6,387 nt of DNA from a virus (lineage: Duplodnaviria > Heunggongvirae > Uroviricota > Caudoviricetes): IMG/VR virus record IMGVR_UViG_2706794666_000010. The stretch is one strand, 5' to 3'. Below, piece by piece: positions 5,024 through 5,484 of the stretch. A model generated the notes under the pieces. The model had not been told where the DNA came from and made no database searches. It worked only from the letters and a program-made list of their open reading frames with translations. The translations under genes were made by a program, and so were the position numbers. The first letter of the stretch is position 1; each line of letters begins with the position of its first letter.

Positions 5024-5055
5024 GAAAATAAAAACAAAAACCCGCCGAAGCGGGT
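5024..5055 (-). terminator. Rho-independent terminator of the hok transcript
   Basis: Minus-strand hairpin ACCCGC-uucg-GCGGGU followed by UUUUUGUUUUUAUUUU, about 70 nt after the hok stop. Confidence 0.7.
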
Positions 5056-5124
5056 TAAGTGTGGGTGCATTGAGGATGCCTGACCCATCAGAGGTGGCGA
5101 GGGATTTCTCCCCCGCCTGGTCTC

Positions 5125-5280
5125 TTACTCCTCAGGTTCGTAAGCTGTGAAGACAGCGACCTCCGTCTGGCCGGTTCGAATTCGTACCTCGCAGAGGTCT
5201 TTCCTCGTTACCAGTGCCGTCACTATGACGGTTAAACAGATGACGATCAGGGCGATTAACATCGCCTTTTGCTGCTTCAT
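5125..5280 (-). CDS. hokD: Hok/Gef-family type I membrane toxin (HokD/RelF-like, 51 aa)
   Basis: Translation MKQQKAMLIALIVICLTVIVTALVTRKDLCEVRIRTGQTEVAVFTAYEPEE matches the Hok family as I recall it (HokC/Gef is almost identical in pattern); strong SD AAGGAG 9 nt upstream of the ATG. Confidence 0.9.
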   Translation of the reverse strand: MKQQKAMLIALIVICLTVIVTALVTRKDLCEVRIRTGQTEVAVFTAYEPEE

Positions 5281-5337
5281 AGCCTGCTTCTCCTTGCCTT
5301 TCGGCACGTAAGAGGCTAACCTAGATTTGCCGTTCAT
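5125..5337 (-). CDS. Mok-like in-frame N-terminally extended reading frame overlapping hok (70 codons)
   Basis: Upstream in-frame ATG at 5337 preceded by GAGG adds MNGKSRLASYVPKGKEKQA before Hok. This resembles the MokC extension ending ...KVKEKRA-MKQ as I remember it. Confidence 0.4.
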   Translation of the reverse strand: MNGKSRLASYVPKGKEKQAMKQQKAMLIALIVICLTVIVTALVTRKDLCEVRIRTGQTEVAVFTAYEPEE

Positions 5338-5456
5338 AGATTGAGCCTCAGATTAATGTTAAGCGTCTTGCCGGACGCGTAATGTTAACTGGGGCTTTTC
5401 TCTATCTGCCTTTTGGTGTTCATGCCTGAGACAGATAGCCTCAAGCACCCGCTGCA

Positions 5457-5484
5457 ATTCTACTTAACTCTCCTTTTCCCGCAA
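5457..5484 (-). promoter_or_regulatory. Candidate sigma-70 promoter of the hok/mok mRNA
   Basis: Minus strand TTGCGG -16 nt- TAGAAT; the predicted transcript to the terminator at about 5024 would be roughly 425 nt, typical of hok-family mRNAs. Confidence 0.4.

What the first reader, a model, noticed from the sequence alone, without database searches (positions are those of the whole stretch)
5024..5484. Self-contained hok/mok type I toxin locus in the nin-equivalent region, without relBE
The Hok ORF is unmistakable. Around it are a sigma-70-like promoter (TTGCGG-16-TAGAAT), an in-frame Mok-like extension with its own GAGG, a strong hok SD and a terminator giving a roughly 425-nt transcript. 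In E. coli K-12 Qin, hokD is the distal gene of relBEF and is usually described as lacking its own regulatory elements; here different small genes sit upstream and the locus looks autonomous. A Sok-type antisense RNA would be expected on the plus strand across the mok start (about 5325..5395). A plus-strand candidate promoter TTGCCT-17-TAACCT (5294..5322) would start such an RNA about 8 nt inside mok, but I found no convincing plus-strand terminator.
Basis: partly seen in the sequence, partly recalled or inferred. Interest (0 to 1): 0.6.

Follow-up and report, generated by a model that had tools for sequence, protein, structure and literature searches.

The report
Intact prophage hok/mok/sok toxin–antitoxin module
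This is a complete copy of the well-known hok/sok "host-killing" toxin plus antisense-RNA antidote in a lambda-like prophage; it is the intact form of the truncated hokD gene of E. coli K-12, a close relative of the experimentally studied hokW-sokW of Shiga-toxin phages, and occurs in about 70% of complete E. coli genomes, so it is real but ordinary.

Summary
Window 5484..5030 (minus strand) holds a complete hok/mok/sok type I toxin-antitoxin locus. It has a weak promoter, a ~415-nt mRNA whose 5' end (tac) pairs with a 3' box (fbi), an in-frame 70-aa Mok ORF, a 51-aa Hok identical to K-12 HokD, a road-block hairpin and a terminator. Pfam (E 1e-23), Rfam (112 bits) and compensatory tac-fbi changes across diverged loci support family membership. 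The K-12 relBE-hokD locus lacks the whole 5' half. The locus is not new: 933W annotates mokW/hokW/sokW (93% identical), that system has been shown to function, and 3,779 of 5,426 complete E. coli genomes hold a copy covering at least 80% of the query, which requires most of the leader. One side result is possibly new. The single-stranded 5' tail of Sok and its target loop form a hypervariable, recombining patch in otherwise near-identical loci. This may set antidote specificity.

The parts
5457..5484 (-). hok/mok mRNA promoter: -35 TTGCGG (5484..5479), 16-nt spacer, -10 TAGAAT (5462..5457)
   Evidence: Sequence checked. Identical in 933W and E. coli GF4. The -10 is invariant in 64 related loci. 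Only 8/12 to consensus, so not listed by the scan; a weak promoter is expected for hok.
5030..5450 (-). Full-length hok mRNA, about 415 nt, from G5450 to the T run after the terminator
   Evidence: Position 1 of Rfam RF01794 aligns to 5450, 7 nt after the -10. Terminator found. Fold -168.9 kcal/mol, z -6.5, with 5'-3' end pairing.
5437..5450 (-). [quoted passage not shown]
   Evidence: Pairs with fbi in the full-length fold. Pairs with ucb in the Rfam consensus structure and in the 62-nt and 145-nt partial folds. The same 19-mer begins hok loci in many Enterobacteriaceae.
5389..5397 (-). ucb (upstream complementary box / anti-SD), AAGCCCCAG
   Evidence: Pairs with the mok SD region in the full-length minimum-energy fold and with tac in the Rfam consensus. 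Element definitions from PMC9841398.
5125..5337 (-). mok ORF (70 aa, MNGKSRLASYVPKGKEKQA + Hok), in frame with hok; SD GAGG at 5349..5346
   Evidence: ORF. PHROG 251 'MokW-like host killing', E 8e-33. 70-aa forms are common in databases. MokW of 933W has the same length.
5312..5317 (-). dcb (downstream complementary box), AGCCTC, pairs with the mok SD GAGGCT in the open form
   Evidence: Rfam consensus stem. Hairpin kept in all patch alleles. Abuts the Sok -10, as reported for R1 (PMC9841398).
5125..5280 (-). hok toxin gene, 51 aa, SD AAGGAG at 5295..5290
   Evidence: Pfam HOK_GEF E 1.2e-23. 51/51 identical to K-12 HokD and 47/51 to HokW.
5139..5142 (-). TACG motif at the Tyr47 codon, a candidate TadA A-to-I editing site (Tyr to Cys)
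   Evidence: Sequence. Editing of hokD at this conserved Tyr in K-12 is reported in PMC5630033. Not tested for this locus.
5096..5117 (-). 3' UTR hairpin GGCGGGGGAGAAATCCCTCGCC, the likely road-block for 3' exonucleolytic trimming
   Evidence: Formed in both the full-length and truncated folds. Role inferred from R1 (PMC1635323; PMC9841398).
5063..5075 (-). fbi (fold-back inhibition) element, CCTCAATGCACCC, complementary to tac
   Evidence: Duplex -21.5 kcal/mol, 48 nt after the stop; 2 of 300 shuffles do as well. Same position, with compensatory changes, in Pantoea, R1-type and Vibrio loci.
5030..5056 (-). Intrinsic terminator of hok mRNA (AACCCGCTTCGGCGGGTT + T run)
   Evidence: Shared with K-12 hokD and GF4 but not with 933W.
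5294..5322 (+). Sok promoter: -35 TTGCCT (5294..5299), 17-nt spacer, -10 TAACCT (5317..5322)
   Evidence: -35 invariant and -10 nearly invariant in 64 loci. Identical in 933W. The primers for Takada's promoter-less sokW mutant change exactly this hexamer (my reading of primers YO-421/422).
5329..5399 (+). Sok antisense RNA, 71 nt: single-stranded 5' tail 5329..5342, hairpin 5343..5395, U tract from 5396
   Evidence: Position obtained by carrying over the 933W sokW feature. 65/71 identical to sokW, with all differences in the first 10 nt. Fold -31.4 kcal/mol, z -5.2, stem ending at UUUUCUCU.
5323..5343 (.). Hypervariable patch: Sok 5' tail plus start site = mok codons 1-5 = loop of the SD/dcb hairpin
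   Evidence: Pairwise divergence 0.30 per site, against 0.03 in the rest of the leader and 0.011 at 4-fold sites of hok. About 29 alleles in 157 loci, shuffled relative to Hok variants.

Best explanation
The locus is an intact hok/mok/sok type I toxin-antitoxin module of the hokD/hokW subgroup. It sits in the nin-equivalent region of a Qin-like lambdoid prophage.

Proposed mechanism, following the plasmid R1 paradigm:
1. A weak constitutive promoter makes a stable mRNA of about 415 nt. Its 5' end (tac) is clamped to a 3' box (fbi).
2. In this closed form ucb hides the mok ribosome-binding site, so the mRNA is neither translated nor bound by Sok.
3. Slow 3' trimming, back to the hairpin at 5117..5096, removes fbi.
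4. [quoted passage not shown] This exposes the mok start and a target loop.
5. The short-lived 71-nt Sok RNA is transcribed from the opposite strand. Its single-stranded 5' tail binds that loop, blocks mok translation and hence the coupled hok translation, and the duplex is cut by RNase III.
6. When Sok synthesis stops, Sok decays, the processed mRNA is translated, and Hok inserts into the inner membrane and kills or lyses the cell.

Shown here: all sequence elements, their structural compatibility, and covariation of tac-fbi.
Shown by others for close homologues: toxicity of HokD and HokW, Sok-dependent repression, and Hok production on prophage induction.
Inferred for this locus: actual transcription, processing, and the physiological role. 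My estimates for the role: help with lysis or release on induction about 0.4; prophage stabilisation about 0.3; exclusion of other phages about 0.2.
For: - Toxin: Pfam HOK_GEF E 1.2e-23.
- Leader: full-length Rfam RF01794 match at 112 bits on the mRNA strand, whose consensus structure contains the tac/ucb and SD/dcb stems.
- Closure: the minimum-energy fold of the 417-nt RNA pairs nt 1-12 with the 3' box, z -6.5.
- Covariation: tac-fbi duplexes lie 48-54 nt after the stop in six diverged loci. U-A here becomes C-G in R1-type loci, and the Vibrio locus has several double changes.
- Energetics: the open form costs 11.9 kcal/mol in the full-length RNA but only 1.8 after removal of the 3' end.
- Sok: it folds as a tail plus a terminator hairpin, z -5.2, and is 65/71 identical to the annotated sokW.
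- Conservation: the promoter -10 boxes, both SDs and the Sok -35 are invariant or nearly so in 64 loci.
- Toxin identity: Hok is identical to K-12 HokD, which is used as a toxic control in bioRxiv 10.1101/2025.08.07.668861.
- Homologue tested: hokW-sokW, 93% identical in DNA, is a functional type I system. HokW is toxic, mutation of the sokW promoter unmasks toxicity, sokW RNA disappears and HokW appears on induction (PMC8621323).
- Negative control: the K-12 relBE-hokD locus gives no leader hit.
Against: - There are no expression data for this locus.
- Both promoters are poor matches to consensus (8/12 and 7/12) and are not listed by the scan.
- The minimum-energy fold of the truncated RNA keeps the closed ucb/SD pairing plus a local 5' hairpin rather than the open form. 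The switch is therefore compatible with, but not predicted by, thermodynamics alone.
- Chromosomal hok loci tested earlier did not mediate post-segregational killing (cited).
- No terminator separates the locus from the upstream phage genes, so read-through transcripts with a different 5' end are likely during lytic growth.
- The sokW ends in 933W are annotated features; as far as I could see they were not mapped experimentally.
Confidence: 0.87

Rival explanations
1. hok here is in practice a phage late or early accessory lysis gene. It would be expressed mainly by read-through from the upstream early-right operon after induction, and the locus's own promoter and tac/fbi switch would play little part. 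Convergent phage transcription would also shut down the Sok promoter.
For: - All neighbouring genes are on the same strand as hok.
- No terminator-like site lies between the upstream ORFs and the hok promoter.
- In Sp5, HokW protein appears only after RecA-dependent induction, sokW RNA vanishes, and deletion halves phage release (PMC8621323).
Against: - The -10 box and the exact 5' end are invariant across loci whose upstream flanks differ completely.
- The same module works in 933W at another genome position, near attR and in a different transcriptional context.
- In Sp5, hokW mRNA is already present before induction.
- tac-fbi covariation implies selection on a defined 5' end.
- This reading complements the main explanation more than it replaces it.
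Confidence: 0.07
2. The locus looks intact but is a physiologically silent chromosomal copy, like the K-12 hok loci reported as inactive. Hok would never be made in amounts that matter.
For: - Chromosomal hokA, hokB and hokC loci failed to mediate post-segregational killing or rifampicin-triggered killing (cited).
- Weak promoters.
- hokD-type toxins may need TadA editing of Tyr47 to Cys for full toxicity.
Against: - No IS element, frameshift or stop; every regulatory element is present.
- Strong conservation of the functional boxes across 64 loci, with variation confined to one patch.
- The 93%-identical hokW-sokW is active in its native prophage.
Confidence: 0.05
3. Chance resemblance: a short hydrophobic ORF with fortuitous promoter-like and hairpin sequences.
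For: None beyond the general caution that short ORFs and hexamer matches are common (one search shows that promoter-like sites occur at about chance level in this region).
Against: - Pfam E 1e-23 and Rfam E 9e-26.
- 93-98% DNA identity to annotated hok loci in phages and thousands of genomes.
Confidence: 0.01

Closest known systems
hokW-mokW-sokW of Stx2 phages 933W and Sp5 (VT2-Sakai); GenBank AF125520 features; Takada et al. 2021, PMC8621323
   Same: - 92.9% DNA identity over window ~5518..5053.
- Identical promoter boxes, tac, ucb, both SDs, dcb, and Sok hairpin and U tract.
- 70-aa in-frame Mok and 51-aa Hok (47/51 identical).
- Same small hydrophobic ORF just upstream.
   Different: - Genome position: near attR in 933W, against the nin-equivalent region here.
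- Homology ends right after fbi, so the terminators differ.
- Hok C-terminus is TAYEPEE here and VDYESEK in HokW.
- The first 10 nt of Sok, and mok codons 2-5, differ at 6 positions.
hokD (relF) of the Qin cryptic prophage, E. coli K-12
   Same: - Hok protein 51/51 identical.
- Same hok SD, 3' UTR hairpin, fbi and terminator (97% identity from window 5294 to 4980).
- Same downstream synteny: rem, DUF968/ydfU, Q-type antiterminator.
   Different: K-12 has relB-relE upstream. It lacks the promoter, tac, ucb, mok start, Sok target and the Sok gene body and -10, and gives no Rfam leader hit. The window is the intact ancestral-type arrangement.
hok/sok (parB) of plasmid R1, the mechanistic paradigm
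   Same: - Same set of elements in the same order.
- Full-length match to the Rfam model, which also matches R1-type loci.
- tac-fbi at the same distance after the stop.
- Sok has a single-stranded tail plus hairpin (R1: 64 nt with an 11-nt tail, PMC1635323).
   Different: - The Hok proteins share only about 44% identity.
- mok is out of frame with hok in R1-type loci but in frame here.
- Sok is 71 nt with a tail of about 14 nt.
- The region removed by 3' trimming would be about 60 nt rather than 39.
- Prophage rather than plasmid context.
hokC (gef)/mokC/sokC of the E. coli chromosome
   Same: Identical 19-nt mRNA 5' end; Rfam match at 118 bits; in-frame mok type.
   Different: A different Hok subfamily (50 aa). 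The K-12 copy has an IS element downstream and no detectable fbi partner.

Membership tests
[quoted passage not shown] | Hok toxin of about 50 aa with an N-terminal transmembrane helix and the conserved Hok/Gef motif | tested here: met
   Pfam HOK_GEF E 1.2e-23, profile 1-42 of 42.
[quoted passage not shown] | Overlapping upstream mok reading frame with its own SD, through which hok is translated | tested here: met
   The ORF 5337..5125 and GAGG 5349..5346 are present, with a PHROG 251 MokW-like hit. Translational coupling itself cannot be tested with these tools.
[quoted passage not shown] | hok mRNA leader with tac/ucb and mok-SD/dcb stems (open form) | tested here: met
   Rfam match to model positions 1-157 of 157, 112.4 bits against a gathering score of 59, with few non-canonical pairs. 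The 145-nt partial fold gives exactly this structure.
[quoted passage not shown] | Long-range tac-fbi pairing that closes the full-length mRNA | tested here: met
   Present in the minimum-energy fold. Duplex z -3.1 at the conserved position, with compensatory changes across diverged loci.
[quoted passage not shown] | Cis-encoded Sok antisense RNA with its own promoter, single-stranded 5' tail, hairpin and U tract, overlapping the mok start | tested here: met
   Met at the sequence and structure level only: plus the sokW annotation carried over from 933W. Whether the RNA is made in this organism could not be tested.
[quoted passage not shown] | [quoted passage not shown] | tested here: inconclusive
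   The penalty for the open form falls from 11.9 to 1.8 kcal/mol when the 3' end is removed. The minimum-energy fold of the truncated RNA nevertheless stays closed.
[quoted passage not shown] | Toxicity of Hok and its neutralisation by Sok | not testable with these tools
   Literature only: HokD (the identical protein) is toxic on overexpression, and hokW-sokW is functional.
relBEF-type hokD (K-12 Qin arrangement) | relB-relE immediately upstream, with hok as the distal gene and no leader of its own | tested here: not met
   No relBE in the window and a full leader is present. In K-12, homology starts only at window 5294.
hokW-sokW locus of Stx phages (same locus in the strict sense) | Same genomic position (near attR) and same flanks as in 933W/Sp5 | tested here: not met
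   The 933W locus lies between L0139 and L0136 near attR. The window locus lies between nin-like ORFs and rem/DUF968/Q. The 3' flank diverges after fbi.

The most novel reading that the evidence does not exclude
The roughly 20-nt patch at 5343..5323 covers the single-stranded 5' tail of Sok and the mRNA loop it first contacts. It may act as a fast-evolving, recombining specificity cassette. Under this reading, different prophage hok/sok copies carry mutually non-recognising Sok tails, so that the antidote of one prophage cannot disarm the toxin of another prophage in the same cell. This would be analogous to incompatibility determinants in antisense-RNA copy-number control.

Evidence:
- Divergence in the patch is about 10 times that of the rest of the leader and more than 20 times that of synonymous sites in hok.
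- About 29 discrete alleles were found in 157 loci, and they are shuffled relative to Hok variants.
- All six differences between this Sok and sokW lie in the first 10 nt.

Not excluded: this is simply a weakly constrained hairpin loop with short-patch recombination. My co-residence test had no power.
Probability: 0.3. Interest if true: 0.5.

Novelty: already known. Interest (0 to 1): 0.17.

Why it matters
As an annotation matter, the locus should be read as a complete hok/mok/sok module with a plus-strand Sok RNA, not as the lone "hokD" CDS that automatic pipelines report. It also shows plainly that K-12 hokD is a derivative in which a relBE cassette has replaced the 5' regulatory half. Biologically it adds nothing new to the hok/sok paradigm. 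The module is likely to influence lysis timing, prophage stability or exclusion of other phages in its host, as shown for hokW-sokW. The only lead with research value is the hypervariable Sok-tail patch. If it sets antidote specificity, it would explain how up to ten hok/sok copies can coexist in one E. coli genome without cross-neutralisation.

Tried and rejected
1. The protein homology search with Hok listed only 94-100% identical proteins among its best 120. It was useless for building a diverged alignment. I used tblastn against plasmids instead.

2. The plain promoter scan lists neither the hok nor the Sok promoter. I therefore do not claim promoter strength from consensus. The same scan missed the Sok terminator, presumably because its long stem is interrupted by mismatches.

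3. The minimum-energy fold of a 3'-truncated mRNA did not give the open form. In the constrained folding, my "closed enforced" runs included a non-canonical C-A pair and gave energies below the unconstrained minimum. I discarded those numbers and compare only the unconstrained minimum with the open-enforced energies.

4. The Rfam hit lies on the minus strand. I first considered that Sok might be on the minus strand. I rejected this because the model ends at the hok AUG and begins at the mRNA 5' end, so the family called "sok" models the mRNA-sense leader.

5. A weak isrK hit (25.7 bits against a gathering score of 50) over the hok 3' UTR was dismissed as below threshold.

6. The co-residence test of Sok-tail alleles yielded only four same-genome pairs. 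Random pairs would differ about 91% of the time, so the test is uninformative.

7. An ungapped comparison of the first 95 nt of the mRNA (value 0.233) is an indel artefact. I use the alignment-based value of 0.03.

8. The review I tried to read by the id I guessed (PMC2593563) is not held. I found no open text of Pedersen and Gerdes 1999, so the statement that hokD lacks regulatory elements rests on my own comparison.

9. K-12 hokC shows no fbi partner. This fits the IS element downstream, and I did not count it against the family rule.

Full report
**What is in the sequence**

Read on the minus strand, the window is a stretch of a lambdoid prophage. In order it contains: small nin-like ORFs (6321..5572), the locus in question, a rem-like ORF, a DUF968/ydfU-like gene, a Q-type antiterminator (Pfam Antiterm, E 2e-53), a DNA methylase and two tRNA genes.

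The best chromosomal match is E. coli GF4, 97.6% identical over the 541-nt query. It shows the same order between the replication genes and Q, so "nin-equivalent region" is correct.

- TTGCGG-16-TAGAAT at 5484..5457.
- mok SD GAGG at 5349..5346.
- mok ATG at 5337, in frame with hok (70 aa).
- hok SD AAGGAG at 5295..5290.
- hok at 5280..5125 (51 aa).
- A terminator at 5056..5039 followed by a T run.
- On the plus strand, TTGCCT-17-TAACCT at 5294..5322.

**Is it more than chance?**

Yes.
- Hok matches Pfam HOK_GEF at E 1.2e-23.
- The leader matches Rfam RF01794 over the whole model at 112.4 bits, E 9e-26.

That family is named "sok", but the hit is on the minus strand. It starts 7 nt after the -10 box and ends at the hok AUG, so the model describes the hok mRNA leader in the sense orientation. 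Its consensus structure is the "open" fold: a tac/ucb stem, the Sok-target hairpin and the mok-SD/dcb hairpin.

The same model finds the leader in 933W, GF4, K-12 hokC and six diverged plasmid loci from Pantoea, Vibrio, Klebsiella, Salmonella and E. coli. It finds nothing in the K-12 relBE-hokD locus.

Definitions were taken from PMC9841398.

Folding the 417-nt RNA from 5450 to 5034 gives -168.9 kcal/mol, z -6.5. Nucleotides 1-12 (tac) pair with CCUCAAUGCACCC at 5075..5063 (fbi), and AAGCCCCAG (ucb, 5397..5389) covers the mok SD.

I tested the tac-fbi pairing across diverged loci. In each, the best partner of the first 14 nt lies 48-54 nt after the hok stop. The pairing is kept by compensatory changes: U-A here becomes C-G in R1-type loci, and the Vibrio locus has several double changes. 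In six of the ten loci scored, including the window, the duplex was matched by at most 3 of 300 shuffles. Two R1-type loci and K-12 hokC did not stand out from shuffles. K-12 hokC has an IS element downstream and lacks the partner.

Removing the 3' end lowers the cost of the open form from 11.9 to 1.8 kcal/mol. The minimum-energy fold of the truncated RNA still stays closed. The processing-triggered switch is therefore plausible but not demonstrated by thermodynamics.

A hairpin at 5117..5096 is placed where R1 has its road-block for 3' trimming.

**Sok**

Phage 933W (AF125520) annotates mokW, hokW and a 71-nt sokW. Carried through the alignment, sokW corresponds to window 5329..5399 on the plus strand, starting 7 nt after TAACCT.

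This RNA folds with a single-stranded tail of about 14 nt and a long hairpin (5343..5395) that runs straight into UUUUCUCU. The energy is -31.4 kcal/mol, z -5.2.

The window Sok is 65/71 identical to sokW, and all six differences are in the first 10 nt.

Takada et al. showed the following for hokW-sokW (PMC8621323):
- HokW is toxic.
- The locus is harmless unless the sokW promoter is mutated. Their mutagenic primers change exactly the TAACCT hexamer.
- sokW supplied in trans partially rescues.
- Repression partly needs RNase III and Hfq.
- On prophage induction, sokW RNA disappears, HokW appears in the inner membrane, and phage release doubles.

**Relation to K-12 hokD**

Hok here is 51/51 identical to K-12 HokD. 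In a K-12-type chromosome, homology to the window begins only at window 5294, 14 nt before the hok ATG, and relB-relE lie upstream.

K-12 therefore keeps the hok SD, ORF, 3' hairpin, fbi and terminator. It has lost the promoter, tac, ucb, the mok start and the Sok gene.

**How common it is**

- 4,937 of 5,426 complete E. coli genomes have a match.
- 3,779 have one covering at least 80% of the query, which requires most of the leader.
- The median is 2 places per genome and the maximum is 10.
- 78 phage records match.
- PHROGs has a family "MokW-like host killing".
- 70-aa Mok-length proteins with an identical Hok part are seen on about 1000 contigs.
- A recent survey reports hok enrichment in prophages (bioRxiv 10.1101/2025.08.07.668861).

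The finding is therefore already known in kind and nearly in sequence.

**Mechanism and role**

I take the R1 mechanism as the working model. Each sequence requirement is met here.

What remains inferred is expression, processing and the physiological role. All flanking genes share the hok strand and there is no terminator upstream. Read-through from the early operon after induction is therefore likely. It would also run head-on into the Sok promoter, which offers a simple reason for Sok loss on induction. This is my inference and has not been tested.

The -10 box and the mRNA 5' end are invariant in loci whose upstream flanks differ entirely. The module also sits at another position in 933W. 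Both facts argue that it is autonomous.

**Side results**

(a) Variation within the leader is concentrated in 5343..5323, which is the Sok tail and the target loop.
- Pairwise divergence is 0.30 per site in the patch, 0.03 in the rest of the leader and 0.011 at 4-fold degenerate sites of hok.
- About 29 alleles occur among 157 phage-borne loci. They keep the stem and the ATG, and they are shuffled relative to Hok C-terminal variants.
- A further class of 7 to 9 loci has the whole Sok segment replaced.
- In R1 the Sok tail makes the first contact with the target loop (PMC1635323). The patch could therefore set antidote specificity.
- My co-residence test had no power.

(b) An Enterobacter plasmid carries the K-12 relBE cassette and the same 72-nt spacer, joined at the conserved hok SD to a different, R1-like hok. 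Another phage locus joins a third kind of upstream sequence at the same point. The hok SD looks like a recurrent recombination joint.

**Verdict**

Novelty: already known. Interest is low. The hypervariable Sok-tail patch is the only lead worth following.

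Noticed in passing
window 5323..5343 (both strands); loci L015-L094, L145-L224: Hypervariable patch covering the Sok 5' tail, its start site and mok codons 1-5. About 29 discrete alleles in 157 loci, 10 times the divergence of the rest of the leader, shuffled relative to Hok variants. The window carries a minority allele (7-8 of 157).
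   Followed up: partly
L012 1..620 (Enterobacter hormaechei plasmid NZ_CP058154.1) vs L003 1917..2700 (K-12 type): The relB-relE cassette and the 72-nt spacer are identical to K-12 Qin but are joined at the conserved hok SD (AGGAGAAG.AGGC.ATG) to a different, R1-like hok. The same hok occurs without relBE on pECL_A (L011). L091 joins a pECL_A-like upstream sequence to a HokD-identical ORF at the same point. The hok SD appears to be a recurrent recombination joint.
   Followed up: partly
window 5494..5575 (-): A 27-aa hydrophobic ORF ([27 protein letters not shown]). Its ATG overlaps the stop of the upstream 114-aa ORF (ATGA), and it ends 10 nt before the hok -35. A diverged copy lies in the same place upstream of hokW in 933W. 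It is present in 15 of 80 related phage loci, so it belongs to one flank type rather than to the hok module. No Pfam or PHROG hit.
   Followed up: partly
window 5275..5450 (-): Rfam family RF01794, named 'sok antitoxin', actually models the hok mRNA leader in the sense orientation (it starts at the mRNA 5' end and ends at the hok AUG). A hit therefore marks the toxin strand. The real Sok lies on the opposite strand, within the span of the hit.
   Followed up: yes
window 5139..5142 (-): The Tyr47 codon of hok lies in a TACG motif. This is the TadA A-to-I editing context reported to recode the equivalent Tyr to Cys in K-12 hokC, hokD and hokE mRNAs (PMC5630033).
   Followed up: partly
L016 and 13 other IMG/VR loci (patch allele GAGGCCATATCTATGCGACACATAGAGATTAGCCTC): A common allele is 2 nt shorter. 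This puts the mok ATG out of frame with hok, as in R1-type loci, and changes the Sok -10 to TAATCT. Hok is still identical.
   Followed up: partly
L001 2819..3283 (933W) vs window: In 933W the hok module lies near attR, not in the nin region. Homology to the window ends right after fbi, so 933W lacks the Qin-type terminator. The module has moved within lambdoid genomes.
   Followed up: partly
window 4987..5016 (-): Promoter-like site TTGAAG-18-TAGAAT immediately after the hok terminator and upstream of the rem-like ORF (4907..4623). Only the first 30 aa of that ORF match the rem-type PHROG 340.
   Followed up: no
window 5035..5116 (-): Weak match to the Salmonella prophage sRNA family isrK (25.7 bits; gathering score 50) over the hok 3' UTR hairpin, fbi and terminator. 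Probably chance.
   Followed up: no
window 280..543 and 3383..3648: Two masked runs of N (264 and 266 bases). The second interrupts the DUF968/ydfU-like ORF.
   Followed up: no
window 591..750 (-): Two tRNA genes (Arg-TCG and a CAT-anticodon tRNA called Met by ARAGORN) downstream of the Q gene and the DNA methylase, as in many lambdoid and Stx-type prophages.
   Followed up: no
L104 6061 and 6727; L143 3610 and 4812 (Klebsiella chromosomes): Tandem pairs of hok loci of another subfamily (MLTKYALVAI...). They share the same 19-nt mRNA 5' end and lie 666 and 1202 nt apart.
   Followed up: no
L001 447..535 (933W, near attR): Rfam sRNA-Xcc1 match at 69 bits (gathering score 53) upstream of L0142 in 933W. 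Unrelated to the finding.
   Followed up: no
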